From Cyanophora paradoxa CCMP329 (taxonomy: Eukaryota; Plantae; Glaucophyta): a stretch of DNA of 64,000 nt. The translations under genes and the position numbers were made by a program. The notes under the pieces were generated by a model, which ran no database searches, was not told where the DNA came from, and saw only the letters and a program-made list of their open reading frames with translations. The DNA lies in assembly GCA_004431415.1 (NCBI GenBank), contig QPMI01000499.1, forward strand, positions 186,001-250,000, read 5' to 3'. Below, piece after piece: positions 1-23,783 of this stretch; the first letter of the stretch is position 1; each line of letters opens with the position of its first letter.

Positions 1-29
1 CTAACTATTCTTCCAGTTGCTGGCATCTC

Positions 30-3000
30 TTAATTAAAAGGAACAGAATTAATACCATCTGGTAAGATGTATCTCTTTGCATCAAAGCAGTTTAGGGCAA
101 CCCTTCTACTCACGGTATCTATTATTGTGTGATCTGCCCTTCTCTTCTGCTTTGCAGTCACAGTCTTGCTGATACCTGCAAATAAACACTCCTTAAAATC
201 ATTGAATTGGAGTTCCTCAGTGGAAGTCCCAGATAGCTTACTTCTCTCAATCTCAGCTGTTCTGAAACTGTAAACTTTGGCTCTCAGACCTACATACTCC
301 AATATAGCAGAACCTGGCATCTCATTTTTGTATTTACCTGGGGTCATTCTTGAATCACCTCCAAGGTCTAATGCATAGGATATATTCTCTATATCTGTTT
401 CAAGGGTCTTAGATTCGATGTATAGACAAAAGGAATCAGTATCATGGAATAGTAACTTGGCTTTGGACCACTGGGACCTCACAGTATCATAGAAGAACTT
501 GTAATTATGCAGTTTGGCTGCATCCAAAACATAAGCCCCAATTGCAACAGGCTTATCTAGCTTCACATGCTTTGTGTAAAACTCAAAGGCAACTGCCCTT
601 TCACTTATGGGACTTGTTGATTTCACTAAAGGAGAGGCTGCATATTTCATAAACAGTTTCTCACTGTTGGCAATCTTAACCACAGATCTACCTCTACATG
701 ATTCAATGCATTTCCCATAGATTGAGTTATTCATGAGTTTATAGAAATCAGCCTCGAATTTATTCACTGCTTTCCTTCTCATATCAGTGTTCAGCTCAAT
801 GTAGGGTTTCATTACAGGAGCCACAGTAAATGATAGGACCCTGTGAACCTTCTTTAGTTTCACACCTTTGGTCAGAATATACTGTAGAAGAGGCTCAGAA
901 ATCACATAGTTTGTCACAGAACCAAAGGTTGCAGTTAGCTTAGGGGTCTTATCAAGCTCTTCTCCTGAGAGATCCAATAGGCTCTTTTGATATTGTGATA
1001 ATTCTGCATATTCTACTATTTTCTTGTTTATAATTAGGGGAAATCACTGTGATCTAGAAACAGCCTAATTGGGTAATCCAGATCAACTTCCAGGAAACTG
1101 GATCTGTTATCTTGTGGGTTGAATTCGGTCTCCCATCTAAAATCACCAACTGGAATAGGCTGACTCAAGCAGTAGCCATACAAGTTGTTAGCATCAAACA
1201 GCATAATATGGGAGTTCTCACCATCAGCCTCAGCATACCTACAAGGCATTGTTGCAAAGCCACCCCTGATTCCCTCTCAACAAATTCATATTGCTCTACA
1301 TCACTGATGAGTTCTATTTTTGCCTTGGTGGTCCTTAACATAGCATCCCAAGATAGCCCAGGTGCAGATACATAATGAACTGGGTCAAGTCCATATACTG
1401 AGTGTGAAAGCCTTCTAAAAGCCTGGAATTTGTTCATTAATTCATTTACATCAGCAGCTCCGAAATCCATGAAATTGCTTGCATCAATGAACTTGTAAAG
1501 ACCCCATTGCAATGAAAGATATTGATCAAAGTTTTTCGAAAGGATTTCGATTCGCTTTTTATCACCCATGCCTGCTATTTTTCTGAAAATGAATGTCCCA
1601 CAGTCATCCATTTGATCAACAACAACTGCAACTTTGGTTTGCTTTGAGATTCTCCTATGGAGATTGCAGTTTCTGCATGCAGGGCAATGTAATGACCTGT
1701 GTGGTGATCATGATCCCTGCATTTGAAGTTTTCCTTAGTGAACCTCTCACTGCAAAGGTAACAGTGTTTGGTAGCCCTGTAAACAGCCTTTTGCTCATCT
1801 GTGAGTTCATTCATTGGAATATTGGTAAACAGAAAATCGATTAGTTCTCTTGCTTTGGACTCCAAGCATTCAAAGAGACCTCCCATTGGATCCTGACCCT
1901 CAAATCGAAACTCCTGAACATCTGCCCAGTGACTACTCTCAGGTTGACTGCTGAGACTTCTCTCTTGGATTTTGATGCATCAATGGGATGCTTCTATGTT
2001 CAATCTTGCAGTATACCACAACAGGAAGCCACACAGTTTTCCTGAGGTTTTTCAGTCCAAACTCTATGGTGGTCTCAGGCTTAGGAGTGATTCCCTTTGA
2101 GAGTCTCCAATCAATGCATCTGTTTGAGTCCACATGAGCAGTGAGTTTAGCCTCAGACCTGAATCGAGATAAGCATGTATCACAGTAGTGTAACTTTTGA
2201 TCCTTGGTTTTATCAAGGGCAACTCTGAGAAGTCTTGAAAGGGACATGATTGTAATATAGTGACCATTCCCTTCATCATCATGAATGAGCATGAGATTAA
2301 TCTTTTGCTTTCTGCCTGGGTTGCTGGATTGATGTAGGGGATATATAACATCTCGATCCATTCCAAATATGTTTATGCTGATGCCTGCATTTTGAGATTC
2401 GAATTTATCAATGATTTCAGCATCACAGGGAACAGGGAATGGGATGTTATCGAAATTGAGTGCCAAAGGATTGTATGTAGTTGGTGAGTATTTCCATTTG
2501 CGATATTGTGTAAGCTCACTTCTCTTGTGGGAATTCACATCTTTCCTATGGATCCATGCCAAAACTGCATTTTCGAAGCAAGAATCATCAATATTTCGAA
2601 TATTCACTGTGGCTCTCTTGGCTGCAATTGAATCAGGTGTTTTAACATAGCAACCACCAGTTGGGGCATAACTCATAATAGCAACTCTGAGCATTTCGAT
2701 TCTCTCCAATCGATAGCTATCAACAACATTCATCTGCTCCTGACACATTTGGGCTGCTTTATTCAGCTCAGTTCGAATATTTCTCGATTTGGTTAATACA
2801 AAATAATCGCTGTAAATGTATTTCGATATCCAAACCTGTGGATTGCTGACTTTTACGAACTTGCAGATAAACGATAAGCGAACTTTGATTGCCCTGAATT
2901 GATCTAGACTGTCTCTTAAACGTTTTGGTAGAGAGGTTGCAATTCTATCTAAATATTCAATCACATCAACAACAACTTCCCTTCTGGCTCTGTAAGTGAG

Positions 3001-3270
3001 CCAGCGATATAATTCATTCATAGCTGTTCCATCTTCTGCCTCTGGTTCTATTTGCCTCAGGCGATCCAATTCATCAAGAGTTTCAACTTTGTCATAGAGG
3101 TTATTTGCTTTTCTGGTTAATTTTGCTAAAGTGGGTCTGCCCCTTGAAATAAATCCGATTTCCCGGTCATATTCAGCCTCTGTGATTTCATGGGCTGCAT
3201 ACAGTGTTCCTAGTAATCCCATGAGTTCCCATTTCTTCTCTCTAATGAGTCTGTTGCTAATTCGGGGCAT
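30..3270 (-). CDS. polB: Protein-primed family B DNA polymerase (Polinton/adintovirus type) with C2H2 finger and recombination endonuclease VII domain; split by ~5 single-base frameshifts
   Basis: Polymerase motifs FDANNLYG (A), FYKLMNNSIYGK (B), FHDTDSF (C), GLRAKVY, DPVHYVSAPGLSWDAML, and IRGG after frame correction. Endo VII motif CYLC..RDHDHHTG..ACRNCNL. N-terminal GGCYVKTP..VNIRN.D..CF motif typical of Maverick PolB. ORFs 30-977, 1034-1249, 1165-1611, 1575-1886 and 1939-3270 join by 1-nt corrections. Confidence 0.92.
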
Positions 3271-3304
3271 AGTTCCTAACTTGTTCCTACTCTCAACAAA
3301 TATT

Positions 3305-3622
3305 TTATTCTGAGATGTTCTGAACGCGATTTTCTAGTTTCTTTCGCAATTTGGCTTTGTAATGCATTGGATAATGTGATCCATTTTTTGTCCATACATT
3401 TGGGTTTTTGTGATACTGTTTAAGGGCGTTAATTAAGTTTTTCTCTGTTTGTAATCGCAAACAATCAATATCTTTGGAGGAAAGCTGTGACATTTGATAC
3501 CCATCACATTTGCTTTGGCATTTGATGATTTTGTCTATAAGAGCTGGTATATCCTTCAAATCATCTTTATCGAAATGTTTGTTCTCAATCATTGAACTCA
3601 TTCTGGTAGTCCAGCTTGTCAT
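3305..3622 (-). CDS. Hypothetical viral protein (105 aa)
   Basis: ATG ORF co-oriented with, and directly upstream of, polB; no recognisable motif. Confidence 0.55.
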   Translation of the reverse strand: MTSWTTRMSSMIENKHFDKDDLKDIPALIDKIIKCQSKCDGYQMSQLSSKDIDCLRLQTEKNLINALKQYHKNPNVWTKNGSHYPMHYKAKLRKKLENRVQNISE

Positions 3623-3677
3623 TGTTGGTACTACTACTTATTATTATAAGAATATTATAATGTATTTGTTTTAAATC

Positions 3678-3819
3678 GTCAGGCAGACTTCGATTGTCAG
3701 GCAGCTGATTCAGCCAACATTAAGAAACTCTGTCACTTTTTCAAGTCAGTGTTTGAGAAAACTAATGAAACCATAAACTTATAAAAGTTAAATAGAAAGG
3801 TGCCTGACAGTGCCTGACA
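3678..3819 (-). promoter_or_regulatory. Iteron/origin-like element, copy A (inverted)
   Basis: GTCAGGCA at 3678 and TGTCAGGCA at 3695 face TGCCTGACA at 3801 and 3811 across a ~97-nt AT-rich spacer. The reverse complement resembles 6794-6936. Confidence 0.6.
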
Positions 3820-3824
3820 GCTTT

Positions 3825-6216
3825 TTAACAATCATCATCATCCTCATCAATAAACTCTGTTGTAGTTTCCGAAATCAGTTTTACACACTTGTAACCTCTA
3901 TCATATACTTTTGAAGTTGCCTTTCTCACTGCATATTTGTCATATTTGGCTCCCAACATCTCCATTACTCTCTTAACCCTGCTTGCAGATATATTGAGTT
4001 TCAAAGCTTTTAACTCCTCATCTACAGTTTTGCTTGACAGAGAATCAGAAGGATTTCCTGTAAATTCAAATCTGCTTTTTAGTATTTGAATTTCATCACC
4101 TGCATCCTCTCTGAAAGCAGCAGTATCATTTGCCACCTTGCCACATATCTGGACTTTGTGGGATTTGTATGCTTGGAATACTGACCATTGGAAAGCATGA
4201 ATGATTTCAGGGCGTTTAAGCAGATCACTTTTAATATCTTCAGAAGCCAATCTATAGCATGGGAGCTTCATTTCATCCATTGTTTTCTGATCCACAAACT
4301 TGTGGGGATGCTGAAAGAAAACAAGAGTCTCAAGTGTATCAGATGGAGAAACAGGGGGCATATCATTCATGATCATCCAGAGCCTACTTTGGAGTCTTAT
4401 ATTTTGCTCATTTCCATATAGGATTCGAATGCATTGAATATCACCACCAGATTCTTTCTTTTTAATCATATTGCCATTTATCTTGATACTTGGATTCGAA
4501 ACATCAAACTTCATCTCTTGGGTAAATGTTAAACGGCGAAATTCACATGGTTTCATCCATTTTAGCTTTTTAGCCTCATCAGAATCTGAATGTTTGTCCA
4601 TCAGGAAAGATTCTCCTCCAATAGTGTTTACATAACCACTCCCCCAAGTGTTCTCATTAAGATTGACATAAACTCCTTTTCCACAATTGCGCTCACCTGA
4701 TGATAGTCCCCATTGTTTATCCTCTACTTTGCCTGCCATTGCTCTTGCTGTAAATTCGAGAGCAGTATTAATTGCATCTGCTCCAAACACAGGTTCAAGT
4801 ATGTTTTCGTAGAGGATTTTTATATGCTCTTCTGACGGCTTGACTACATATCCTCGATCATCTACAAGTAAATCTCTTTCAATTCTAGTAGTGGAATAGA
4901 CGTTTTGACACTCTGCCCAAGGAGTAAGCTTTTTGGTTTCGAAATCATACACACCATTTTTATAACACAATTTTCCAAGAGATGAAGACCAAAGGACATT
5001 ATTCACAAACTCACTATCATTTGGCAGAAGAGCTTTTGTAGCTTTGATTACTTTTTGAGCGCCTGTTATATTTGCGGTATACTCTGTTAGACCTGTCAGA
5101 CCCTCATGATAGATCTTTGCTTGAAGGCACTTCTTTAAAAGCATATTTTCCACTTGATTGGTTTCCTCAGTCCAAAGATTCTCATCTGTTTTGACAAATA
5201 TACGACCATTGGATTGCTTGACATCATTTTTGATATCTTCAGCAAACAGAGTAGCAGCCTCATAGTCTGTAGAGCAAATTCGAAAATCGTTTGCTTTCAG
5301 AGAAGCTTCATCTGGAAGCTCGAAACCCTGATCCATAGGCTTAACAACTAAGCCTAATTTGTATCCTGTGGACTGCTGGATATAGTTCTCTGCATCTTTG
5401 AGAATATCAGTAAGTTTTTCCAGTGATAGATTAGGTGACTTTTCAATCATGCAGCCATCAAATACAAGAACACCAACAGTGAGTTTGATGGAGGTTAAAT
5501 ACTCACACAGAGCCATAAGAGCAATATTCTCGATCTGACAAAGAACCATGTTAACAGTGGAACCTAACACATTGTAGCCCTTCTTTCGCTTGCAAATAGC
5601 AAGGAAGTTGGTATTTTCTTTAATTCAGCAATAGAAGCATGAATACCACCAATTTCTTGTTTAACCTTTTTAAAAGCCATTTCTTTGTGTAAATCGGGAC
5701 ACTCAATGCCTCCTCCTCCGTTAATCACAGATAAGAAGGCGCACTTAATTTCTTCACGAGTAAGATCACACTTTTTGCTTAAATCACTAACGATTTTATC
5801 TCGATTGGCAACAAACTCAGCAAGGAAATCACAGTTTATGTCATTTTTTGGCAATACTGGACGAGTATCGATGGATGAGCATTTTTCATATCAATATCAT
5901 AATACAAATCCCTTGCTAAGGTGTGTCTAAATTCCCGAGGCATACTCTGCATGCTTGCTTTTTTGTTTTTGATGTGTGAGAGAGTAGTGAAATATCTCCC
6001 AGTATGGTGTTTGCATTGATAGTATTTAACTTGAATGGCTCCATTTGAATGCAAGTCTTTCATGTATTTCTTCAGGAGAGTCAAAGTAGCAGTAGAATCC
6101 ACATCAGGTCTATAACTCAAACCCTCGAAATTATCGATTAAATACTTAAGAGTAGGGCGAGATACTTTTTCAACAAGAGTGATATCGAGATTGTTGGGTT
6201 TCTTTGAGCTAAACAT
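3825..6216 (-). CDS. TVpol (PolA-like primase/polymerase) fused to SF3/D5-like helicase; two single-base frameshifts
   Basis: GRYF..SMQSMPREFR, motif A DIDMKNAHP, motif B FLSVINGG, motif C LVFDGCMI. Helicase part has D5-like YKNGVYDF, Walker A GERNCGKG and motif C WMIMND. Frames join by adding one A near 5845 and one near 5615. Confidence 0.85.
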
Positions 6217-6390
6217 CTTTCTTGAACGTTTCTATATTAAGCAGATAAAATATTTTATCTGAAAATCCTTGTCATTTTTTGTTGCCAAACCTTTAAGTCC
6301 TTTTGGGTTGGCTTCCAGTTATATCGATAATTGGTAGTAGTGTATCAGTTTTTTTATGAATTCCCCACACAAAAATAATGAACCGGCATT

Positions 6391-6621
6391 TCAGTATTTC
6401 CGAGGACGACCTACAGGTCGACCTTCTGGGAAATTTGGGTCAAATGTGAGTTGCTTTTTATAGTAGTAATAGGCTAATGCCCTTTTGCGGCGAATTTCAC
6501 GATATTCCTCATCCTCTTCATATCTTTTATTATAATAAATTTGGTTTGAGATCTTTTTCTTCATTGCAGAAGAGATCTTTTCAAAACTTTTGCTCTCAGT
6601 TACAGTTTGATCAGTATCCAT
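6391..6621 (-). CDS. Small basic DNA-binding protein with AT-hook
   Basis: 76 aa; YREIRRKRALAYYYYKK...GRPVGRPRKY (AT-hook core). Confidence 0.65.
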   Translation of the reverse strand: MDTDQTVTESKSFEKISSAMKKKISNQIYYNKRYEEDEEYREIRRKRALAYYYYKKQLTFDPNFPEGRPVGRPRKY

Positions 6622-6752
6622 TTGGGTATCTCTTAACTATAACCGAGAAAAATGTTTTGTCAGATTTCAATATGCTTGATTTCCTTAAGTAGTTTATGCG
6701 TTGTCATTTTTTGGTAACAGAGATAATTCCTATACTGTTACCATAAATGGTT

Positions 6753-6936
6753 TGTCAGGCACTTTAAAATAGTTGTCAGGCACTAATATAGTATGTCAGG
6801 CATTGTCAGGCACCTTTTTAGAAAACTTTTCTATAATGAAAATTTCATTGTTGATCCAAACAATGACATTGAAGATTTTCAATAGTGTTTTAAAATCAAT
6901 GTGTTTCCTGCCTGACAAACGTTTTACTGCCTGACA
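6753..6936 (+). promoter_or_regulatory. Iteron/origin-like element, copy B
   Basis: TGTCAGGCA at 6753, 6774, 6794 and 6804; inverted TGCCTGACA at 6909 and 6928; lies in a divergent intergenic region. Confidence 0.65.
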
Positions 6937-7009
6937 ACCTTTCATCAACAAAAAATGATTGTGTAAACTGACTTAAAGATTTATCAGATATATTAATAAG
7001 AAAACAACA

Positions 7010-7309
7010 ATGGCTGCTCAAATCGCCAAAGGAATTCTTGCCGAAAAGATTGAGAAAGATACCCTCTGGAAAGATCATAAAGGATTAGTTGATGCTATTG
7101 TAGAGAGTGGTCTCCACTCAACAGGAATAAACATTAATCAGGCTGATAATAAGCGAAACAAAGAATTTCGACAGAAAGTAGAAAGAGATGTATTGGGCAT
7201 GATAATTGACCCAAACTACCTTTCCACAATTAACAAAAAAAATCATTCAAACACTGCCACAAAAAAACGACTCTTTAAGAAATTAATGAGTCGTTCTACT
7301 TCCTCTTAA
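7010..7309 (+). CDS. Hypothetical basic viral protein (99 aa)
   Basis: ATG ORF preceded by AAAAAATGA and ACTTAAAG motifs shared with neighbouring genes. Confidence 0.6.
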   Translation: MAAQIAKGILAEKIEKDTLWKDHKGLVDAIVESGLHSTGININQADNKRNKEFRQKVERDVLGMIIDPNYLSTINKKNHSNTATKKRLFKKLMSRSTSS

Positions 7310-7386
7310 AAAAAAGAGCCAATTCCTTTGTATATATTTTTATAGCTGCCTCAGTAGCATACTGAGACCGCTTTTTCTCAATTATC

Positions 7387-7632
7387 TTATAGACCTGGGG
7401 GTCCATTGCTACTTTCAGTTGGCAAATAATATTTAATCGGTCTTCCTCTGGGTCTCTGCTCCTCTTTTTGGGCTTTTCTGCGATAATAGGATGCCAGGGC
7501 TTGTTGCTTCTTATACTCTCTATATGCTGGGTCCTCTCTATATCGTTTCTGCATTGCTAGAATGTGTCTTATAGAACCCTCAGTAACAGGTTCATCACTG
7601 GTAAACTCGATTAAACTAATAGTATCCTCCAT
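7387..7632 (-). CDS. AT-hook protein, paralog of 6391-6621
   Basis: RYREDPAYREYKKQQALASYYRRK...RPRGRPIKY aligns by eye with RYEEDEEYREIRRKRALAYYYYKK...GRPRKY. Confidence 0.65.
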   Translation of the reverse strand: MEDTISLIEFTSDEPVTEGSIRHILAMQKRYREDPAYREYKKQQALASYYRRKAQKEEQRPRGRPIKYYLPTESSNGPPGL

Positions 7633-7888
7633 TTATATTCCCAGAGAAAACGTTTTCTGCTGACAGAGAACTTCTCCTTGGATACTCCTGTTGCTCATAT
7701 GTATACTCTGTGGGGTCTGCTGGCATTGACTCCACAGAAACTGTTGATCTCCTTCTCTCTCTTGCTTCTGAGGCATTATCCTCATTATCTGACATCTCAA
7801 ACTCCACTGTTGTCTCACAACATCCACTGTGGCAATTGCTCACCACATGCAGACTGAACATCTCGAAGAACTTTCGTATTATGTCCAT
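7616..7888 (-). CDS. Small hypothetical protein with CHSGCC motif and acidic tail
   Basis: ATG at 7888 (MDIIRKFFEMF...SNCHSGCC). Confidence 0.45.
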   Translation of the reverse strand: MDIIRKFFEMFSLHVVSNCHSGCCETTVEFEMSDNEDNASEARERRRSTVSVESMPADPTEYTYEQQEYPRRSSLSAENVFSGNINGGYY

Positions 7889-7910
7889 ATCTCTAATAAA
7901 ACAGAGAAAA

Positions 7911-8643
7911 TTAAAGCCAAACTCGTCTTTTATATACTGTTGGGGCAACTCCCTTTTCTACTTCAGCTTTGGTGGCACCAGGTTCAATGGTTCCCTTTTG
8001 GGTCTTTGTTTTCATTTCATCTACTGCCTGCTCATCGATTTGGTTCTCTTTCTTAGCAATAAACTGTTTATCTGGGACACCAGTGATTCCCATTTTATAA
8101 ACTTCCTTTCGAAGCATCTCCTTTAGCTTGGCTCTCTCTTTCTTCTCAGTAACATACTGCTCCAAAGCACTGGATTTGGCTTCCAGATCTTTGAGTTTAG
8201 CAGTCATCTCATCCCATTGAGCCTTGGAATTCGATGAATATTTTGAGTGGGAGCAGTCTTGTATGTGACTTCACCAGCCATAGACTGAATAACCTTGTCT
8301 GATTCTTTACTTAGACCTTCACCTTTGCGAGCCAATGACAGATCTTGCAAGCCTAAACCTTTATCATCAGCAGCACCAATAATTCGCCTGGCACCCTCAG
8401 CAACAGCTTTCATTTTGAGGCTTCTGGTGAAATGTTGAGTTGGTCAGCAGTTGAACTTTGTGGGGCTTTGTCATCGACTGATTCCTCATAGGCAGCATTT
8501 AGGGGGTCTTCTTGGGGTTGTGAGGGTTTGATTTCGTTCATACCATTGAATTTCATTGGTTCAGTGTTAATAGATCCATTGTTTCCACCACCTGAATAGC
8601 CAACAGCCCCAGCTGGGATCCCTATTTTTCGTTTGGGAGGCAT
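7911..8643 (-). CDS. Putative core/virion protein (~245 aa); three short ORFs probably one gene
   Basis: 8410-8643, 8204-8413 and 7911-8207 fuse in frame if one A (AAAA run ~8413) and one G (GGG run ~8214) are added. Directly downstream of the ATPase; basic N-terminus MPPKRK. Confidence 0.5.
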
Positions 8644-8671
8644 TGTATCTTTATTAGAATGAGAGATAATT

Positions 8672-11941: not shown

Positions 11942-11970
11942 TCTTCTTTTATCTATATTTATATATTAAA

Positions 11971-14446: not shown

Positions 14447-14489
14447 CTTTTACTTATCAGGAATTTTATAAATCCATATAGTAAAAGCC

Positions 14490-17400
14490 ATGAGCTTCAA
14501 TTACCCACCCAATCTAGAAACCATTCAAGATGATAATGCAAGCAGCACCAAGCATGTGAACTTTGATAATATTAAAGTAAAGGGTTCAGTTTCGATTGAC
14601 CACAGTTCCGATAATTCATCCAAGACTCAATCAAGGGAGCATGCTTTGTCTGTGAATCAAACCGATCCAGATAAGGAGGAAGTTAGTGTTGCTTTTAGCT
14701 TGGGTAATGTGAAAGCAAACCAAGTGGCAGAGATCAAAGCAACAAGAAGGAGACCTAGGAAACTAAAAACCAGTGGCACTCACCCAGATATACCTTCCAG
14801 GTTTGACAGTGGTCGTCTGGTTTTCAATGTTCAAGATGAGCAGGGCAAACAGAACACAGCTTTGCGAATTTACAATGAGGGCAGCACTGCAAAAGCTGAG
14901 GTCCCCCAAGTATTGCAAGTGGGTCCCATTGCCAATACAAATCAGGTCTCCTACACAAATGATGTCTACCCCAAGGATATTACATATGACTTTGCAAGGA
15001 ATGAGCCTTTTGGGTTCTTTACTCCAAAAGATGTCCATCAAAAAAAGCCATCAATTACAATCAACAGTAGCCCCAGTCAACCAGTAGCAATCCATTTACA
15101 TCCTGATTTAGTCGAAATGGATAGGCACCTTTTGCCTTTGTATAGCAATGTGAAAGACCTTGGAATTCGAACCAGGCAATGGCGAAATATCCATGGCAGC
15201 AATGTGTATGCAAATGGTGAGAAGCTTGTAAGTGAGAAGACCATAAGAGAGATCTTTGAGTATTATGGACCTGTCCCAGTTCCCTTCCCTCTTCCATGGG
15301 ATCCACCAGATTTAACACCGAAAAAGCAACCAGGCAGAGAGTACACAGCAGATGAGACAGTTCCTTTTGGGCAACACATTGTTAGTTGGGAGCAGGTTCG
15401 CAATAAACCGATAATTGAACCAAGAAAGCAAATTGATGAGCAATATTTACCTCCTGAAATCGATATTTTGGAGCTTGACGAATACCAATTCGTTCCAGAT
15501 GAGGAGGAATACCTACCTGATGGTTTCGACCCACAAGAGTATGAATATGATCAATATGATCCCAATGATGAAGAGTATTTACCAGATGGTTTAGATCCAC
15601 AAGAGTATGAGTATGAGCAGAATTATGAACCCCATGAGGAATATTTAGCAGATGGTCATGATCCACCAGCTGTTGACTATGAGCAACCTTATGAACCCCA
15701 TGAAGAATTATTACCAGATGGATTTCGACCTGAGATTTGGGAATTCTTCCCAGATTGGGAGCAGATCAACAACAAACCAGCCAGATTTCCACCAGAGGAT
15801 CACAACCATGACTGGGATGAGATCTTAGGTAAACCAGAGAAATTCCCACCAGAGGATCACAGGCATAATTGGGGTGATATTGATGGGATCCCACCAGAGT
15901 TTCCACCAGAAGACCATTTGCATATTTGGAGTGAAATACGAGAACAACCCACTTTTGCATCAGCAGGTAATGTATTATTAGGAGATATTAACAATGGTGT
16001 GAGTCTCTATCAAAATATAGACACACCAGCAAGATTACAATTAAATGATTACTATGTGAATCGAAAGGGAATAGATGCAGGCACCACAATGGAAGGCGAA
16101 TTATACATTAGACCCCCTACAAGAAATGGAATATTGGGACTTGGTGGTGGTATTGAAATTAAAGACACCAAACCAGGTATCTATTTGACAAGTTACTTTG
16201 CAGATGACATCCCAATGACAGGAGGATTGATCTCTCTACCATCTGATCCAGCAAACTATGATGATAAAAACGCAGCAATCCAAATTAATGTTACTGATGT
16301 GAGTGATTTAGATTCATCAAGACCGAAATTAATATTCAGCAGAGAGAGAATGCTACCTGATGCACTTTTAGGAAATCGAGACGATTATAAACAGTGTGAG
16401 GTGTCATGGATTAAAACAAATTATAATGGTGGAGTGGGTGAGGGAGTCTTAGAAATCAATCAGAGGGCAGCAGCAAAGAATATTCACAATGAGACCATAT
16501 CGAGAATAGTTACAGAGGATTACCTTCAAGCCCAAAACTACATAGATGAAACCGAACTAAATACAATCATTGCAGGAATAAATATTGGTGTGACAGGTGA
16601 TTACCTCCCTCTGACAGGTGGGACTATTGATGGAACAGTGACAGCATGCAACTTCTTTGTTCACACTGAAAGCAATCAAACATTCCCAGTTGTACATCCA
16701 GGAGGTGAGTATGAGATACCTGATGATCCAGCAATAATGCCCATTAAGATTGATCTACCTTCTGATTATGTAGGAAGAGGTGAACTGAAAATCATATCTT
16801 TCACAGGAGATTATAATGATCTAATTAATAAACCCACCCCATCTAATCTACACCCTGTTGCATATTCAGGTAGCTTCCTTGATCTGAATTATAGATCACA
16901 CACCCACACAAAGGCAGAGATCACAGATTTCGCACACACTCACACCAAATCCCAGATAACAGATTTTGCACACACCCACACAAGAGCAGATATCACGAAT
17001 TTCGCTCACACTCATTTTAAATCTGAAATCACAGATTTCGCACACACTCACACAAAGTCACAGATTACAGATTTTGCACACACTCATGTCAAGAGTGAGA
17101 TTACAGATTTTGCACACACTCATGTCAAGAGTGAGATTACAGATTTTGCTCACACTCATGTCAAAGCAGATATTACAGATTTTGCACATACTCATGATTG
17201 GAATACAGATATCTATAACAAACCCGCTTTATTTTCGGGCAACTACAATGACCTGACCAATAAACCCACCCTCGATCCCTTTACAGCAAATACTATTACT
17301 GCAAATGCAAACCTTCTCATTGGATCAGGTTACTTTCTCGATTATGACCCATATATTATGCCTGATCCTCCTGTTATTTGGAATTTCCACAATTCAACCC

Positions 17401-17837
17401 TTTCTACTAACTCTATATCTTACTATCAGGATAAAACCCTACTTGTTCGTGGAAATGCATATGCAAGAGAAATGTGGGTCATGGATCCTCGGGACAATTC
17501 AAAGGTTACTAAGCTGGCTCCTCAATACATGCTTGATAACCTGATTAGAAAAGGGAGACATGAAATGACAATTGCGAATCCTCAAATTGGGGGCAGTTCA
17601 GCAAGGCAAAACCATAGCATTACATTAAATTGGAGTCCTGCCTTTGCATCTGCTCCATCTGTTGTTGTAACATTGCAGGGACTACCTGCAACAAATGTGG
17701 AAATCGATTATAAAATAGGAATATCAAGCAACTCAACAACCTCTACCACAATCAATCTTGTTATTTGGGCAGCAGGATGGGTAACCATTCAACCACAGTG
17801 GCTTCAAATTGCAATCCATTGGATAGCATCAGCATAA
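14490..17837 (+). CDS. Long fibre/spike protein (1115 aa) with phage tail-fibre repeats
   Basis: EEYLPDGxDP repeats, FPPEDHxHxW repeats, YLPLTGGTIDG, GxYNDLxNKP motifs, ~8 HTHxKSEITDFA repeats, C-terminal FASAPSVVVT beta domain. Confidence 0.75.
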   Translation: MSFNYPPNLETIQDDNASSTKHVNFDNIKVKGSVSIDHSSDNSSKTQSREHALSVNQTDPDKEEVSVAFSLGNVKANQVAEIKATRRRPRKLKTSGTHPDIPSRFDSGRLVFNVQDEQGKQNTALRIYNEGSTAKAEVPQVLQVGPIANTNQVSYTNDVYPKDITYDFARNEPFGFFTPKDVHQKKPSITINSSPSQPVAIHLHPDLVEMDRHLLPLYSNVKDLGIRTRQWRNIHGSNVYANGEKLVSEKTIREIFEYYGPVPVPFPLPWDPPDLTPKKQPGREYTADETVPFGQHIVSWEQVRNKPIIEPRKQIDEQYLPPEIDILELDEYQFVPDEEEYLPDGFDPQEYEYDQYDPNDEEYLPDGLDPQEYEYEQNYEPHEEYLADGHDPPAVDYEQPYEPHEELLPDGFRPEIWEFFPDWEQINNKPARFPPEDHNHDWDEILGKPEKFPPEDHRHNWGDIDGIPPEFPPEDHLHIWSEIREQPTFASAGNVLLGDINNGVSLYQNIDTPARLQLNDYYVNRKGIDAGTTMEGELYIRPPTRNGILGLGGGIEIKDTKPGIYLTSYFADDIPMTGGLISLPSDPANYDDKNAAIQINVTDVSDLDSSRPKLIFSRERMLPDALLGNRDDYKQCEVSWIKTNYNGGVGEGVLEINQRAAAKNIHNETISRIVTEDYLQAQNYIDETELNTIIAGINIGVTGDYLPLTGGTIDGTVTACNFFVHTESNQTFPVVHPGGEYEIPDDPAIMPIKIDLPSDYVGRGELKIISFTGDYNDLINKPTPSNLHPVAYSGSFLDLNYRSHTHTKAEITDFAHTHTKSQITDFAHTHTRADITNFAHTHFKSEITDFAHTHTKSQITDFAHTHVKSEITDFAHTHVKSEITDFAHTHVKADITDFAHTHDWNTDIYNKPALFSGNYNDLTNKPTLDPFTANTITANANLLIGSGYFLDYDPYIMPDPPVIWNFHNSTLSTNSISYYQDKTLLVRGNAYAREMWVMDPRDNSKVTKLAPQYMLDNLIRKGRHEMTIANPQIGGSSARQNHSITLNWSPAFASAPSVVVTLQGLPATNVEIDYKIGISSNSTTSTTINLVIWAAGWVTIQPQWLQIAIHWIASA
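16898..17198 (+). repeat. 36-bp coding tandem repeat (HTHxKSEITDFA, ~8 copies)
   Basis: Directly visible, e.g. GATTTTGCACACACTCATGTCAAGAGTGAGATTACA repeated. Confidence 0.9.
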
Positions 17838-17862
17838 TAAAGATTCTCACACTATTACAAAG

Positions 17863-18930
17863 ATGACCTCTCTATTAGAAATCCCAAACTATGAACTTGC
17901 AGCCAAATCACTGCACAGCACCTCTCATGGAGTAGTTGATTCAACCCCTGGGTATATTTGTACTGAAACTTCAAGTAATACCTCTTTCACAGAGAATAAT
18001 ATACTCAGAGTCAAAGAAATTCGATGTGATAGGAATGGAGGCAAGATAAGAACCACAGGAATTATTATCTCGAATAAAAATCAGGTTCAAGCAGGTCAAG
18101 TAGTCCCAGATTCAGCAATATATGATAATGTAGGTGGATTTACCACAGCACAGATAGTTTCTTTTGGTAACACAAGTAATACTTCCGCTCTTGTAGTCAA
18201 GAGTGGAGGAGCATACTTTGGAGAGGCATTAAAGGTGAATGGAACAGTAACAGCATCCATACTAAATGCTGGAAGTGGAATGTTTGAGAGTCCAATAAAT
18301 TTTGAGGGTGGATATAATGCGAGTAGTTTTTCAGTTGGTGTTGGTGTCTTTTCCACAATGTTAAACACACCTGAAATTGAATCATCGAATGCACTCAATA
18401 TCAAGAGAAATGCAGTGGTTACAGCAACCATAAACAATGTTTCCCCTTCAATAAATCTAATTAAATATCTGAAAGCTCCTCACCCTCGGTTTTGTATTGT
18501 AAATTATTCAACATCAGCAGTTACTGTGGGAACCACATCAACAGCAAGAAGATTCGCTTTTAACAGAACTCTTGTGGATGCAAGCAATAATATCACATTA
18601 TCCACAGGCACCTTTACAGCACCTGTGTCCGGAATTTATAGATTCTTCTTCATTGTTCAAATGTCAACAGCTTCATCAACAGGGGAGTGTAGAGTTGCAT
18701 TTAGAAAGAATGATTTGGCTCTTTCCCCTCAATCGGTTCAAGAATTTTCAACTTACAATGGAAGGCGAAGTGTTCATATGGAGGCTTCTTTTGCTGTATA
18801 TGCGAACGAATTTGTGAATGTTATACAAACCTGGACATCGTCCATGCAATATGATGCTACAATACAAGGTATTACCTGTTTTGGGGGCATCTCATCAGTA
18901 GATTATAAACTTTTTGTTGGGAATTTATAG
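17863..18930 (+). CDS. Fibre-tip protein 1: shared N-terminal module + C1q/TNF-like domain
   Basis: ILRVKEIRCDRNGGKIRTT and ALVVKSGGAY N-module; C1q signature GTFTAPVSGIYRFFF. Confidence 0.75.
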   Translation: MTSLLEIPNYELAAKSLHSTSHGVVDSTPGYICTETSSNTSFTENNILRVKEIRCDRNGGKIRTTGIIISNKNQVQAGQVVPDSAIYDNVGGFTTAQIVSFGNTSNTSALVVKSGGAYFGEALKVNGTVTASILNAGSGMFESPINFEGGYNASSFSVGVGVFSTMLNTPEIESSNALNIKRNAVVTATINNVSPSINLIKYLKAPHPRFCIVNYSTSAVTVGTTSTARRFAFNRTLVDASNNITLSTGTFTAPVSGIYRFFFIVQMSTASSTGECRVAFRKNDLALSPQSVQEFSTYNGRRSVHMEASFAVYANEFVNVIQTWTSSMQYDATIQGITCFGGISSVDYKLFVGNL

Positions 18931-19953
18931 ATGGCTACCCAAATTGCAGTTCCTGTTTTCTGTTATGCAGCACCTAAATTGCATCAACTGAACCACACAG
19001 TTACAGATGCTATTCCCGGGTTTATTTGCACAGAAACCACAGGAGCAGATTCATTTACTCAAAATTCAATTATCAGATGCAAGGAAATTCGATGTGATAG
19101 AAATGCTGGAAAAATACGAACCACACAATTAATCGTAAGTAACAAGAATCAGGTTTTACCAGGTGGTGTAGTTGCTGATGCAGCTATTTATGATGATGCA
19201 GGTGGGGTGACCACACCACAAATTGTTACTTTTGATGGGACAGAAAATAATGCAGCACTTGTAGTTAAATCAGGTGGAGCATGGATAGGTTCGGGAGCTT
19301 TTGTGAATGGAACACTCTCAGCTACAAATGTTTCAATTTCAGGAACAACAACATTTACAGGTGTTGTGAATGCAAATGGTGGTCTTTTTGTTCCTACTTA
19401 TACAGTCCCTGTGATGACCACAACCACAAAGATTCAAACACCTGAAATAGATACAGGAGCAAATGTAGATCTCATTCTGAAACGCAATAGCACAGAAGTC
19501 GCACGAATTGATGCAGGGGGTCTTACAATCGCAGCAAACTTTTATTTGAAGCAAGAAACCCAACCTCGATTTTGTGTTGGGTTTGGTGTAGCAACAAGAA
19601 GTGGAGTATATGGGCGTCTTACTAATTGGTTGCATGAATTCTTTGATAATACCAACTCATTTGATGTAGTAGAAGGGAAATTCACAGCGCCTATAAGTGG
19701 AGATAATAGATTCTCTCTTAATTCTTATAGTATTGTTACCTCATCTGTGAGTGTAGATCTGAAAGTAAATGATCAGAATGTTTCAACAGAATTCAATTTC
19801 AGGGTAAACAACTCACAAACAGTAACCAACAAAACAATCATTTTGAGCGCAATACTCAGACTTGGAGCCGGGGATAATGTCTCTATTTATGCTGTTGATA
19901 CTTCCATTTCAGAATTCACAACGTTTAGTGGCGAATTGCTGAGCATAATTTAA
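18931..19953 (+). CDS. Fibre-tip protein 2: shared N-terminal module + C1q/TNF-like domain
   Basis: IIRCKEIRCDRNAGKIRTT, ALVVKSGGAW; GKFTAPISG..RFS, ILRLGAGDNVSI, TFSGELL. Confidence 0.75.
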   Translation: MATQIAVPVFCYAAPKLHQLNHTVTDAIPGFICTETTGADSFTQNSIIRCKEIRCDRNAGKIRTTQLIVSNKNQVLPGGVVADAAIYDDAGGVTTPQIVTFDGTENNAALVVKSGGAWIGSGAFVNGTLSATNVSISGTTTFTGVVNANGGLFVPTYTVPVMTTTTKIQTPEIDTGANVDLILKRNSTEVARIDAGGLTIAANFYLKQETQPRFCVGFGVATRSGVYGRLTNWLHEFFDNTNSFDVVEGKFTAPISGDNRFSLNSYSIVTSSVSVDLKVNDQNVSTEFNFRVNNSQTVTNKTIILSAILRLGAGDNVSIYAVDTSISEFTTFSGELLSII

Positions 19954-19972
19954 TTTCTACAAGTAGTTTAGA

Positions 19973-20236
19973 ATGTCGAATATATACCAAGTAGTTCTGA
20001 CTGATACCGAAAAGTTGGGAATGGAATATTGCGCTGCTTCTGTTCAGGACTGGATTGATAATGCTGCCCACAACAGGGCAAGAATCGCAATTGATGAGAT
20101 TGTTCAGAAAGAGATCCAATCTTGCATCTCATCAGGAGTTCAGATACCAACCTCAAAGGAAGCGATTGTATTACAGGCATTCCAAAGGGGAACTGTAAAG
20201 AAAGGTATCGAGTATAATAATGTCACAGAAGAGTAG
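19973..20236 (+). CDS. Small phage-type accessory protein (possible fibre chaperone)
   Basis: LTDTE...MEYCAASVQDWIDNAAHNRARIAIDEI...QAF..G.VK resembles, from memory, small proteins encoded beside C1q-type fibre genes in tailed phages. Confidence 0.55.
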   Translation: MSNIYQVVLTDTEKLGMEYCAASVQDWIDNAAHNRARIAIDEIVQKEIQSCISSGVQIPTSKEAIVLQAFQRGTVKKGIEYNNVTEE

Positions 20237-20275
20237 TGTACATTATTTTTTCTTTCCTTCTTAGTAAAAGAAGCA

Positions 20276-21121
20276 ATGGGTGAATATAATCGAGTTCAAC
20301 TTCCAATATATTCCCTTGGATCCCCTGCAATGCACTTTCGCCAGCATGAAGTTAATGATGAGGTTCGTGGTTTAGAATCCACAGAGAGACCCAATTCCAA
20401 TGGTAACTCCTTTGATAAAAATTCGATTATTCGAGTTAAAGAGCTGAGAGCTGATAAGAATTCAGGTGTGGTTAAAACAACTCGACTTCTTGTCACAAAT
20501 GCTAACTTTTTCCAACCAATAAATGGAGGCCCTGATGCTTACAGTGTTGATCTGAAAGCCCTCGATTTTGACAAGAATTCTGCAGCTGTTACTGTGAGAT
20601 CAGGAGGAGCATTTATTGGGGGTGGCTGCAGAGTTTCAGGTCAACTCTCATCCTCAATTTCGTATAATGATGTCCCAGATACTCTTGAGCAGAATGTTGA
20701 AGACCCCCAACGAATTCGATTATATATACCAGTTGCACAACAGCCACTTATTCAATTTTACCAAGGTTATACTGTCACACTTGAAAACTCTGAATTGATT
20801 GAAGGAACCAAAAGAGTAATGAGAGGGCTGGTCATTCCTTCTGCAATGCTTTCTTTATGTAGAGCCAACAATAACCAGCCAGGTCACAGATACCATTTCA
20901 GTGTTCAAGGATATGATCATTTTGGCACAGGGTTCTGTGTTTATAATAACAATTTCACCTATGATCTGTTTGTTACAGATATTGGAAAATATACAATTAC
21001 AGTTATGGGTATCAGAACAGATATAGCTGCTGTCTCAGCTCTTAGAGGTGTTACTCCTGATACTCTTTCTCAAACAGGGTTTTACATGGAGCCAGATGTA
21101 ATTGATGACCCAACCCCATAA
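20276..21121 (+). CDS. Fibre-tip paralog 3 (shared N-module, unrelated C-terminus)
   Basis: IIRVKELRADKNSGVVKTTRLLVTN, AVTVRSGGAFIG. Confidence 0.7.
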   Translation: MGEYNRVQLPIYSLGSPAMHFRQHEVNDEVRGLESTERPNSNGNSFDKNSIIRVKELRADKNSGVVKTTRLLVTNANFFQPINGGPDAYSVDLKALDFDKNSAAVTVRSGGAFIGGGCRVSGQLSSSISYNDVPDTLEQNVEDPQRIRLYIPVAQQPLIQFYQGYTVTLENSELIEGTKRVMRGLVIPSAMLSLCRANNNQPGHRYHFSVQGYDHFGTGFCVYNNNFTYDLFVTDIGKYTITVMGIRTDIAAVSALRGVTPDTLSQTGFYMEPDVIDDPTP

Positions 21122-21144
21122 ATTATATATCACTTTAATGTAAA

Positions 21145-21978
21145 ATGGCTGAGCAACCCCCACTTGAACGAATTATTACACCACAGCTATCATTAGCTGC
21201 CCCAGCAAACCATGTTTTACAGCATGCTACCTTTGATGATGTGGAAGGTCTCCAATCAACAGAGGTCCAACCTACAATGAATACATTTGGTTCCACCCAC
21301 AAGCTGAGATTACAGGAACTCAGATGTGATAAAAATAATGGAATAGTTAAGACAACTAAGCTACTTGTCACAAATGCAAACTTTTCTGCTCATTATGGAG
21401 ACCCAGATAGCTATGGAGATCCTCTGTCTACTTATTCTTTTGAATCTAGGTCGGGAGCTATTAACTGCAAATCGGGGGGAGCTTATATTGGTGATGGTCT
21501 TAGGGTTGGTGGGGCTGTTGGAGCGCCTCTATTTGTGAATGATCAACCCAATCCCATTGATCCCAACACAAGAATTCGAACCTATGTCCCCAGCATGAAT
21601 GCCCCCTATATAATCAAGATATTCCCCATTGTTGTGAATGAACAAACAGCAGTAGTAGACTCTCTTGTTGAGATTGGTGACCACTACAAGGTTGTTGTTG
21701 ATATCCCACCAGATGTTTATGCTGTATGCCAAGTAGAAGGTGGAACTCCCAACTTTGCAGTAGTGATCACCCCATATGATAATTTCGGAATTGCTTATCA
21801 TGGAGTCAATTTCGGTTTGGAAGACTATCAGTTCTTAGTGAGAGCCACCAAGTTTGGTATCTACAAGTGTGTGATGTTTGCAGAGAGAACCGATTTTATT
21901 GCAAAGCAGAATACCTATGCTGAATACTATGGGACAAATCGATATTTCCCCATTTTCGGGCAGGATACTGCTCCATAA
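21145..21978 (+). CDS. Fibre-tip paralog 4
   Basis: KLRLQELRCDKNNGIVKTTKLLVTN, AINCKSGGAYIG. C-half related to paralog 3 (DP..RIR.Y.P, YD.FG, G.Y...V...RTD). Confidence 0.7.
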   Translation: MAEQPPLERIITPQLSLAAPANHVLQHATFDDVEGLQSTEVQPTMNTFGSTHKLRLQELRCDKNNGIVKTTKLLVTNANFSAHYGDPDSYGDPLSTYSFESRSGAINCKSGGAYIGDGLRVGGAVGAPLFVNDQPNPIDPNTRIRTYVPSMNAPYIIKIFPIVVNEQTAVVDSLVEIGDHYKVVVDIPPDVYAVCQVEGGTPNFAVVITPYDNFGIAYHGVNFGLEDYQFLVRATKFGIYKCVMFAERTDFIAKQNTYAEYYGTNRYFPIFGQDTAP

Positions 21979-22000
21979 GAATGTTGATTATATATAGAGT

Positions 22001-22273
22001 ATGGATAGTAAAACAAAAAAGTTTATTGATGCTGCTATGACAGTCCATGGTAAAGATAAATTCGATTACAGTGAGACACATTACATCAAAGCTCAAGAGA
22101 AAGTATCTGTTAGATGTTTGCAGTGTAATAAGGTGATCCTTACATATCCCTTTAATCATGTGAAGGGATCAGGGTGTAGGGACTGTAATAAAAGAAAAAG
22201 TCAAGCACATAGGAAAAGGGCTACTTCATCAATCACAGTGGAATATAGGGATGTTTGCATTCGGTTCGATTAG
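22001..22273 (+). CDS. Zn-ribbon protein of the DUF723-like type associated with homing endonucleases
   Basis: FIDAA..VHG.DKFDYS...Y......V.VRCxxC...P.NH..GSGCxxC. Confidence 0.65.
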   Translation: MDSKTKKFIDAAMTVHGKDKFDYSETHYIKAQEKVSVRCLQCNKVILTYPFNHVKGSGCRDCNKRKSQAHRKRATSSITVEYRDVCIRFD

Positions 22274-22302
22274 GTTTAATTAATTTTTCTAAGGTATTCT
22301 TA

Positions 22303-22701
22303 ATGGAGACTAAATACAGAGGCTTTCATGTTATGCTTGATTACAAAGCTAAATCAGCTATTGCAACAGGACATGAGCATGTTAGCTTCCTAGGTAATTG
22401 GATTATGGGAACCCTTGAACAAGCTATATTGAGACAAGGTATTAGGATTGTTCATAAACATTGTGAAATATTTGATGGCAAAGTATCACCTCCTGGTTTT
22501 GCATTAGTTCTGCTATTAGATGAAAGCCATTGCACAGCTCATTGTTATTCCAATGAAGGCATGTTAGCAATTGATATATTCAGTTGTGGTAAAGAAGCTC
22601 AGCATAAAACACAAGCAGTTGCTGATGAGATCGATAAAACAATGAATTTCCTCACATTTGAGAAGACTGAGAGACATAAACATGATAGATTCCCGTTTTG
22701 A
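22303..22701 (+). CDS. speD: Pyruvoyl-dependent S-adenosylmethionine decarboxylase family protein (prokaryotic SpeD/SpeH type)
   Basis: GFHVMLD...F.....PPGFALVLLLDE|SHCTAHCY.NEG.LAIDIFSCG: ESH self-cleavage site and conserved D.F.CG. Confidence 0.88.
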   Translation: METKYRGFHVMLDYKAKSAIATGHEHVSFLGNWIMGTLEQAILRQGIRIVHKHCEIFDGKVSPPGFALVLLLDESHCTAHCYSNEGMLAIDIFSCGKEAQHKTQAVADEIDKTMNFLTFEKTERHKHDRFPF

Positions 22702-23193
22702 TGGTTTCTATTATGGTGATCAGGGTGATTTACCTTTTTTATTACAATGGCAATCGTTAAAAAAGGATATAATATATCCTTTCCTACAATAGCTTTCTAC
22801 AATGATTTTCTTTCTACAGTAGCTTTTGTTACAATAGAATTCTACTGTATGATGTAGCCGAAATATGAATGCACCCTACATTAAGCAATGTCAAGTATTT
22901 CGAATACTATTCGATTTCCTTACAATAACACTCAGCATCTCCCCTAGATTCCCCCTATTATATAATATTTATATTAAAGTGGACTCAAGGTTGACTCATA
23001 TTAATCGTAAAAGTAGTAATAGTATATGGATTTTGTTACGAATTCAATGCAAGGGTTGACTAAGTGGGTTGAGTTGACTCAAATTTCACAGGAAATAACA
23101 ATGAATCAGAGTATAAAATGCATTTTTTGAATCAACTACACCAACTAACACTGAGAAAGTAGTTTATATCATATAGTACTACCATATATGGTT

Positions 23194-23374
23194 TGTCAGG
23201 CACTATAATATAGTTGTCAGGCACTAATATAGTATGTCAGGCATTGTCAGGCACCTTTTTAGAAAACTTTTATAAAATTGAAATTTCATTGTTAATCCAA
23301 ACAATGACTTAGCCAAAATAAAATACTTTATGAAAATCGATAGATTTAATGCCTGACAAATAAATGCTGCCTGA
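23194..23374 (+). promoter_or_regulatory. Iteron/origin-like element, copy C (direct repeat of 6753-6936)
   Basis: TGTCAGGCA at 23194, 23215, 23235 and 23245; inverted copies at 23350 and 23368. Offset to copy B is 16,441 nt, and the spacers are also similar. Confidence 0.75.
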
Positions 23375-23438
23375 AAGATTTAACACCAACTAACACTGAG
23401 ATTTTCACAATATATGAGGTCCTTACTGAATATGGTTT

Positions 23439-23540
23439 GTGTGACAGGTGTGACAGGTTTATCCCGTGGATTTTAAAAATCAATTTCTCACTAGGACTTT
23501 CCTTGGGATTGACCTGTCACACCTGTCACACCTGTCACAC
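23439..23540. repeat. Inverted repeat of 9-bp GTGTGACAG units (hairpin) near the element end
   Basis: GTGTGACAGGTGTGACAGGTTTATCCC ... GGGATTGACCTGTCACACCTGTCACACCTGTCACAC. Confidence 0.8.
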
Positions 23541-23783
23541 CCAAAATCCTAAGGGTCCCCCCTTAGACTCAACAAAACAATGATAAAATCATATAAGTTT
23601 CATGTATAATTACGATTGAATTCAATAAGAGATCGATTTGTTAATATAAACAAATGAATCATTTATGGATCTTAATCGAGTTAAGCGATATATTTCCGAT
23701 TAAATGAATTAAATTTAATTAAATTTAATCGAGAAAGTACATGAATATAATATCGATTAAATCAATTAACAAAAAGACCAATC

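What the first reader, a model, noticed from the sequence alone, without database searches (positions are those of the whole stretch)
1..23570. Probably intact endogenous PLV with an unusual gene set
Seen: ATPase, DJR MCP, two pentons, pPolB and TVpol-helicase integrated ~0.6 kb upstream of a spliced host gene. It also carries a lipase, a phage-like fibre cassette and an AdoMetDC; no adenain-type protease or integrase lies inside the window. Known: PLVs are common endogenous viruses of protists. Inference: this combination, and the divergent MCP with an NCLDV-like N-terminus, may define an undescribed PLV lineage.
Basis: partly seen in the sequence, partly recalled or inferred. Interest (0 to 1): 0.85.

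Follow-up and report, generated by a model that had tools for sequence, protein, structure and literature searches.

The report
Algal provirus carrying a second replicase
This is one copy of an already catalogued, many-copy family of Polinton-like viruses, likely integrated in the alga Cyanophora, and it carries an extra repeat-flanked DNA-replication gene that most related copies appear to lack.

Summary
The element is real but its lineage is not new. The ATPase, pPolB, TVpol-helicase, patatin, fibre-like genes and AdoMetDC are present; the capsid folds as a double jelly-roll (modelled on an intact 61%-identical paralog); the two pentons are inferred only. That paralog is a Cyanophora paradoxa protein already listed as a seed capsid by Bellas 2023 (366 capsid hits in that genome). 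Bulzu 2025 tabulates 156 glaucophyte elements with the same gene set (AdoMetDC 66, lipase 89, protease 0, rve integrase 85, TVpol-S3H 6). Corrections: the element likely ends near 24,067, about 80 bp from the host ATG; many genes are frameshifted in the window, likely by assembly errors; the left end lies outside. New here: contigs of three DNA runs lie deep over pPolB and the core but shallow over 3.3-7.3 kb. That stretch holds TVpol-S3H between inverted repeat arms that resemble the element's own subterminal repeat: a likely swapped-in replication module, a pattern proposed in a 2026 preprint.

The parts
30..3270 (-). Protein-primed family B polymerase in several pieces, with endonuclease VII insertion; N-terminal TP/vOTU-like region inferred
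   Evidence: Motifs B and C in 30-812, motif A in 1037-1270, Endonuclease_7 E 3e-4, PHROG DNA polymerase E 0.005. Motif names are recalled. High depth.
3305..3622 (-). 105-aa ORF, no family match; start of the low-depth stretch
3665..3819 (-). Left repeat arm, inverted to 6794-6873 and to 23235-23389
   Evidence: blastn 71-75% identity, E 9e-11 and 6e-7; alignment
3825..6216 (-). TVpol (PolA-like)-SF3 helicase fusion, in three pieces; low depth
   Evidence: 19 homologs at E<=0.001, most 770-830 aa; pieces tile them with PolA-type motifs (motif labels recalled); PHROG primase E 5e-9
6391..6621 (-). 76-aa basic ORF with GRP motif, paralog of 7387-7632
   Evidence: 36% identity; score 95 against a maximum of 61 in 5000 shuffles
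6728..6919 (+). Right repeat arm with short TGTCAGGC iterons; 84% direct copy of 23169-23360
7010..7309 (+). 99-aa ORF, no family match; end of the low-depth stretch
7387..8694 (-). Small ORFs of unknown function (7387-7632 basic; 7616-7888; 7911-8694 in pieces); high depth resumes
8672..9454 (-). A32-type packaging ATPase, intact
   Evidence: PF04665 E 5.7e-12
9514..10878 (-). Double jelly-roll major capsid protein, four pieces in the window
   Evidence: tblastn to P0001, 56-69% identity in three of four segments; model of P0001 pLDDT 59, pTM 0.63; PBCV-1 capsid Z 21.7, rmsd 4.0, 316 aligned
10932..11941 (-). Penton-like gene 1, broken; identity inferred from position and a recalled N-terminal motif
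   Evidence: no significant match
11971..12901 (+). Penton-like gene 2, broken; identity inferred as above
   Evidence: no significant match
12891..14446 (-). Patatin-like phospholipase fused to F5/8 type C (discoidin); break near the start
14490..17837 (+). 1115-aa fibre-like protein with 12-aa, 19-aa and 22-aa repeats, PTR and weak H-lectin
   Evidence: PF12789 E 6.5e-5, PF09458 E 0.016; PHROG tail E 2.6e-8
17863..21978 (+). Four paralogous proteins sharing a ~130-aa N-terminal domain (two end in C1q) plus an 87-aa ORF; likely fibre tips
   Evidence: blastp E 1e-15 to 1e-63 among them; C1q E 1.5e-5 and 4.4e-6; lower depth over 17.2-19.9 kb
22001..22273 (+). 90-aa fragment like the N-terminal part of phage endonucleases
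   Evidence: PHROG 681 and 559, E 3e-9 and 3e-8
22303..22701 (+). Prokaryote-type AdoMetDC (SpeD) homolog, intact
23139..23540 (.). Subterminal iteron unit between 18-bp direct repeats (23139-23156, 23384-23401), then a hairpin of different iterons (23439-23540)
23570..24067 (.). AT-rich terminal region with a 28-bp perfect inverted repeat (23784 and 24067); likely the right end
   Evidence: (tables 2, 4, 7, 8)
24148..25503 (+). Spliced host gene with CHRD domain (flank, not part of the element)
   Evidence: PF07452 E 2.7e-5 on exon 25104-25163; sequence

Best explanation
The window holds the right-hand 24 kb of one integrated copy of a many-copy Polinton-like virus family, likely the one catalogued in Cyanophora paradoxa, and this copy has likely taken up a second replication module. 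Shown: capsid, ATPase, pPolB, lipase, fibre-like and AdoMetDC genes, multi-copy depth, a sharp GC and CpG step to the host, and a 4-kb stretch of low depth with TVpol-S3H between inverted arms. Inferred: the usual copy would replicate as a linear genome from terminal repeats with pPolB, integrate with an rve integrase lying left of the window, package with the ATPase, bind hosts with variable fibre tips and enter with the discoidin-patatin. The 3.3-7.3 kb stretch is a variable slot beside pPolB. Here it holds TVpol-S3H with a paralog of the neighbouring small basic gene and copies of the family's own subterminal repeat, most simply by recombination with a sister element. The repeats would be origin-like sites. 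Most frameshifts are likely long-read consensus errors. Integrated copies are likely silenced by CpG methylation.
For: P0001, 61% identical, is labelled Cyanophora paradoxa and is a seed MCP in Bellas 2023 Table S2, beside a closer 465-aa MCP (43 of the first 48 residues the same, counted by eye). Bulzu 2025 Table S6, 156 elements: TVpol-S3H 6, other primase-helicases 38-40, Pif1 34, PF03175 49, rve 85. Summed contig depth 3,000-20,000 over 1-3157 and 2,000-24,000 over 7463-8600 against 84-611 over 3445-6601 in three DNA runs; single contigs in the cassette 74-401, host flank 29-116, single core contigs 1,900-6,200. Cassette GC 0.358 and CpG o/e 0.47 against 0.40 and 0.24-0.31 around it, host 1.1. 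None of 48 distinct viral loci and none of 78 metagenome loci with this helicase family shows a PolB motif in the DNA fetched. 10 of 13 listed indel places between contigs and window lie at G/C runs. Repeat-bracketed second replicases are described in bioRxiv 10.64898/2026.10.13.758929; methylated silent viral genes in C. paradoxa in PMC12344493.
Against: The tool warns that summed contig depth is no copy number, and GC bias changes the host baseline fourfold between runs. No joint from 3.3 kb to 7.3 kb was listed, so what typical copies hold there is not seen. No listed contig bridges 24,067 into the host flank. Contigs of a multi-copy family cannot show that this copy is unbroken. No host gene was matched to Cyanophora; the host rests on capsid paralogs. 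No target-site repeat of 10 bp or more at the cassette borders. Pentons, vOTU and origin function are untested. The PolB scan is a regular expression on flanks, not whole contigs.
Confidence: 0.75

Rival explanations
1. The arm-to-arm unit (3665-6919) is an autonomous mini-replicon that parasitises the PLV and also moves without it.
For: Inverted arms abut the helicase stop and the small ORF. Close relatives sit in capsid-free settings: L079 has two tandem TVpol-S3H genes inside 155-bp, 95% inverted repeats; L078 lies between palindromes in 67% GC DNA. A hairpin lies within 500 bp downstream of the helicase in 42 of 71 loci, against 32 of 326 other ORF ends.
Against: Low depth extends about 350 bp beyond each arm and takes in two more ORFs. 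No integrase, no target-site repeat. The arms match the PLV's own subterminal repeat and the small ORF has a paralog in the core, which fits a sister PLV. The 71 loci are related, and hairpins may be terminators.
Confidence: 0.2
2. The window shows nested or tandem pieces of two or three elements, or a local misassembly, not one genome with two replicases.
For: Many breaks in 1-14.5 kb; no listed contig spans the stretch; tandem integrations are reported in the same host.
Against: Contigs overlap across the cassette with 0-4 differences, and 3272-3618 runs from the pPolB upstream region into it in two runs. pPolB, helicase and both small ORFs share one strand, with no host-like DNA between.
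Confidence: 0.12
3. The element is a decayed copy and the frameshifts are real mutations.
For: At least a dozen breaks in 14.5 kb; CpG depletion suggests time spent under methylation.
Against: Breaks fall mostly at G/C runs; the low-depth helicase contigs also differ by gaps; 8.2 kb of right-hand ORFs and the ATPase are open; Bellas 2023 reports such stops as assembly artefacts.
Confidence: 0.2
4. The family is a separate high-rank lineage whose capsid is closer to Nucleocytoviricota than to other polisuviruses.
For: Best structural matches are PBCV-1 (Z 21.7, 20.9) and faustovirus (20.8), virophages 11.5-11.9. Only 6 of 1.84 billion representatives match P0001, one of them itself and one a repeat protein. 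Only 2 of 156 elements hit the MCP-POL profile.
Against: No PLV or Polinton capsid appears among the listed solved structures, so the ranking cannot separate them. Other Polinton-like MCPs also hit PBCV-1, and an unrelated PLV capsid hits Capsid_N while P0001 does not. Identity is 10-15%, model pLDDT 59. No tree was built.
Confidence: 0.15

Closest known systems
Cyanophora paradoxa endogenous PLVs (Bellas 2023 MCP clusters 21 and 29 by my column count; 156 Glaucocystophyceae elements of Bulzu 2025)
   Same: Capsid, A32 ATPase, no protease, lipase, AdoMetDC, PTR/H-lectin fibre, discoidin-patatin fusion, high copy number
   Different: This copy has both pPolB and TVpol-S3H; the table gives counts per gene, not per pair, so co-occurrence is not shown there
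Multi-replicase polisuviruses of Barth, Ha and Aylward (bioRxiv 10.64898/2026.10.13.758929)
   Same: Second replicase bracketed by repeats separate from the terminal repeats, without its own integrase; one example is from C. paradoxa
   Different: Their C. paradoxa example has transpoviron-like units and an AEP gene; here PolA-type, with arms like the host element's subterminal repeat and read-depth support. Their figures were not visible, so this locus may be among them
Polintons/Mavericks and alpha-adintoviruses
   Same: pPolB with likely terminal-protein priming, ATPase, capsid; adintovirus-like proteins were noted in C. paradoxa (PMC8502044)
   Different: No adenain protease in the window; capsid not recognised by Polinton profiles in most copies; integrase not seen here
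Free ~24-kb aquatic PLVs with several capsid-like genes (L001, L025; Trimcap-like, label recalled)
   Same: Same TVpol-S3H family at about 30% identity; related ATPase
   Different: TVpol-S3H is their only detected replicase; no match to the window's capsid, fibres, lipase or AdoMetDC

Membership tests
Polinton-like viruses (Polisuviricotina) | Double jelly-roll major capsid protein | tested here: met
   Model of the 61% identical paralog; Foldseek E 7e-16, Z 21.7
Polinton-like viruses (Polisuviricotina) | A32-type packaging ATPase | tested here: met
   PF04665 E 5.7e-12
Polinton-like viruses (Polisuviricotina) | Single jelly-roll penton | tested here: inconclusive
   No hit; not folded
Polinton-like viruses (Polisuviricotina) | 14-40 kb genome with terminal inverted repeats and target-site duplication | not testable with these tools
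   At least 24 kb; left end outside the window; no genome held
Polinton-like viruses (Polisuviricotina) | No maturation protease (original PLV definition, PMC4642659) | tested here: met
   None among 34 ORFs by Pfam, window only; 0 of 156 in Bulzu Table S6
Cyanophora paradoxa PLV clusters | MCP above 25% identity to the cluster seeds | tested here: met
   61% over 213 aa to P0001, a listed seed
Cyanophora paradoxa PLV clusters | Typical accessory genes (lipase, AdoMetDC, PTR fibre, discoidin) | tested here: met
Cyanophora paradoxa PLV clusters | Host is C. paradoxa | tested here: inconclusive
   Capsid paralogs only; no host gene compared
Polintons/Mavericks | pPolB | tested here: met
Polintons/Mavericks | rve integrase | not testable with these tools
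   Not in the window; 85 of 156 family members have one
Polintons/Mavericks | Adenain-type protease | tested here: not met
   window only
Virophages | Virophage-type MCP and protease | tested here: not met
   Sputnik Z 11.9 and mavirus 11.5 against 21.7; no protease; MCP-VIR 0 of 156
Nucleocytoviricota | Core transcription and replication genes | tested here: not met
   No such Pfam hit among 34 ORFs, window only
Autonomous replicase module (transpoviron-like) | Own replicase between inverted repeats | tested here: met
Autonomous replicase module (transpoviron-like) | Own integrase or target-site duplication | tested here: not met
Autonomous replicase module (transpoviron-like) | Copies outside PLVs in the same genome | not testable with these tools
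   No genome held

The most novel reading that the evidence does not exclude
The 3.3-kb TVpol-S3H unit is a capsid-less, integrase-less mini-replicon that mimics the PLV's own subterminal origin, rides inside a small share of copies and spreads between PLV lineages: a parasite of a provirus, caught in place, with free relatives such as the inverted-repeat-bounded 11-kb unit in L079.
Probability: 0.2. Interest if true: 0.65.

Novelty: new member of a known kind. Interest (0 to 1): 0.33.

Why it matters
As a PLV it is ordinary for this host: one of a few hundred catalogued copies. Its use is as a test case. How polisuviruses swap replication modules is an open question, and this locus shows a candidate module with borders, repeat arms and a frequency estimate in a cultured alga with long-read data. 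The family also has a very isolated capsid and a common AdoMetDC homolog that my searches found discussed nowhere in text, so a proper description would still be worth making.

Tried and rejected
No genome was held, so copies could not be counted or extended leftwards. Single-sequence folding of P0001 failed (pLDDT 34). Locus scans with the MCP piece, ATPase, helicase alone, the arm motif and environmental MCP relatives found nothing. The ESM Atlas did not complete. PDB sequence searches gave nothing for MCP, helicase or penton. The idea that the small basic ORFs are homologs of the ORF upstream of the helicase in free PLVs was rejected: profile scores lay within shuffles, and L081's ORF was marginal (2 and 14 of 2000 shuffles). 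Penton-to-penton scores were not significant. No phage match for the AdoMetDC. No Rfam hit. No RNA holder was listed; the two guessed RNA runs covered parts only and were not used for expression. Earlier scan findings: none. A Latrotoxin_C hit on an MCP piece at E 0.04 is chance. Literature searches with no hit: 'S-adenosylmethionine decarboxylase' + 'polinton', 'Cyanophora' + '5mC' + 'polintons'. No phylogeny was built: too few alignable capsid relatives.
Full report
Observation. Bases 1-24,000 are 30-42% GC against 58-75% in the next 19 kb and are densely coding. Pfam on 34 ORFs finds Pox_A32, patatin with F5/8, PTR, two C1q domains, endonuclease VII and AdoMet_dc, and no protease or integrase. 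The polymerase shows family B motifs in pieces (motif names recalled). Its N-terminal ORF has Cys and His motifs that I read as the vOTU domain described in PMC11161782 (parts 2-3 of 6 read); this was not tested. The helicase pieces tile 14 aligned homologs of about 800 aa with PolA-type motifs and an SF3 domain. The pentons have no direct support.

Capsid and host. The C-terminal MCP piece found one protein, P0001, 61% identical, labelled Cyanophora paradoxa. The four window pieces tile it end to end. P0001 has five other hits among 1.84 billion representatives, four of them plausible capsids. A model from a 7-row alignment (pLDDT 59) matches iridovirus and PBCV-1 capsids (E about 1e-15; Z 21.7, rmsd 4.0, 316 aligned), with Sputnik and mavirus at Z 11.9 and 11.5. 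The fold is settled; its closest class is not.

Already catalogued. Bellas 2023 (PMC10120064; parts 1-3 of 7 and rows of supplement 2, which is cut) does not name Cyanophora in the main text. Its Table S2 prints P0001 with an HHpred hit to iridovirus MCP at 98.5%, and a closer 465-aa MCP; Table S4 gives 366 MCP hits in two clusters (272 and 94), an estimated 7.3% of the genome, flagged 'new' and, by my column count, unnamed clusters 21 and 29. Bulzu 2025 (PMC12220804; passages, section 11, Table S6) counts in 156 glaucophyte elements: Pox_A32 139, proteases 0, PF03175 49, COG3378 38, TVpol-S3H 6, Pif1 34, rve 85, lipases 89, AdoMet_dc 66, and names the PTR-H-lectin fibre and the discoidin-patatin fusion. 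Lipases and lack of protease are old PLV traits (PMC4642659, passages). Searches that returned these papers.

Copy structure from reads. Fourteen of 24 listed runs hold over half of the words of 19-26 kb, all one organism code. Contigs of three DNA runs, laid on 5201-25200 and 1-8600, give summed depth of thousands to tens of thousands over pPolB and over 7.3-24.07 kb, with many variant sites, but 84-611 over 3445-6601. Summed depth is no copy number. Single long contigs give the same picture: 74-401 in the cassette, 500-1,200 over the C1q fibre genes, 29-116 on the host flank, and 1,900-6,200 for single core contigs. The cassette is thus roughly 15-20 times rarer than the core, in line with 6 of 156. 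No joint skipping the cassette was listed, so typical copies may hold other DNA there; the published helicase counts suggest they do.

The cassette. A repeat at 6728-6919 is an 84% direct copy of 23169-23360, and 3665-3819 is an inverted copy of both. Each holds short iterons facing inverted iterons about 110 bp away. Between the arms lie only TVpol-S3H and a small basic ORF that is a paralog of the first core ORF. The stretch has lower GC and less CpG loss than its surroundings. Relatives of the helicase lie mostly in free PLV-like contigs of up to about 24 kb with unrelated capsids; no PolB motif was found in 48 distinct viral loci (of 77 fetched) or 78 metagenome loci. The closest ones include an 11-kb unit inside inverted repeats and a palindrome-flanked gene in GC-rich DNA. 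Hairpins follow the helicase in 42 of 71 loci (non-redundant, with 500 bp downstream, out of 155) against 32 of 326 control ORF ends; the loci are related and the window's arms do not pass that hairpin cut-off. A 2026 preprint (abstract, passages, section 13, first part of section 10; figures not seen) already reports repeat-bracketed second replicases, one in C. paradoxa, and calls autonomous mobility speculative.

Ends and intactness. High depth continues to about 24,067; one run has a contig across 23,570, another over 23590-24067 with 17 differences, and loose ends behind 24,067. The end is therefore likely about 80 bp before the ATG of a CHRD-domain host gene. The last 284 bp, inside 28-bp perfect inverted repeats, could also be a small separate element fixed in the family's end. 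The host flank 24418-25200 is matched without differences in all three DNA runs, but no listed contig bridges the junction, so a misjoin is not excluded. Contigs differ from the window by small indels in the broken regions, and 10 of 13 listed places lie at G/C runs (more rows were not shown). This favours assembly error, but contigs come from many copies.

Mechanism. Shown: gene content, fold, repeats, depth contrast, composition. From established knowledge: pPolB priming at linear ends, ATPase packaging, lipase-aided entry, methylation of viral genes in this alga (PMC12344493, passages). Inferred: an integrase to the left, module exchange at a variable slot, origin function of the arms, and polyamine supply by the AdoMetDC homolog, whose substrate is untested.

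Verdict. A new member of a known kind, interest 0.33. The lineage is catalogued but unnamed; the second replicase is the part worth following.

Noticed in passing
window 17863-21978: Four adjacent proteins share a ~130-aa N-terminal domain and differ in their C-termini; depth over the two C1q genes is about tenfold lower than the core, suggesting a second variable slot of receptor-binding tips.
   Followed up: partly
window 23139-23401: The subterminal iteron unit sits between exact 18-bp direct repeats, as if itself inserted or duplicated; a second hairpin with different iterons follows at 23439-23540.
   Followed up: partly
window 1-23000: CpG observed/expected is 0.24-0.31 in the element, 1.0 in its last kb and 1.1 in the host.
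   Followed up: partly
window 44974-48228: Two identical direct repeats of at least 300 bp, 2955 bp apart, starting TG; looks like an LTR element.
   Followed up: no
window 48500-53000, minus strand: Broken ORFs with a reverse-transcriptase-like motif (recalled), likely a non-LTR retrotransposon.
   Followed up: no
window 55500-63400: Tandem arrays with periods of 107, about 687 and about 40 bp, the last near 90% GC.
   Followed up: no
L079:248-11153: About 11-kb unit inside 155-bp, 95% inverted repeats with two tandem TVpol-S3H genes, a Peptidase_S74 fibre-like gene and tandem repeats; no capsid gene seen.
   Followed up: partly
L078:3917-8033: TVpol-S3H with a small upstream ORF between palindromes in 67% GC DNA, with no capsid gene seen.
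   Followed up: partly
P0004, P0005, P0006, P0008: Environmental capsid relatives at 23-30% identity on ENA contigs up to 11.9 kb; their gene context could not be fetched.
   Followed up: partly
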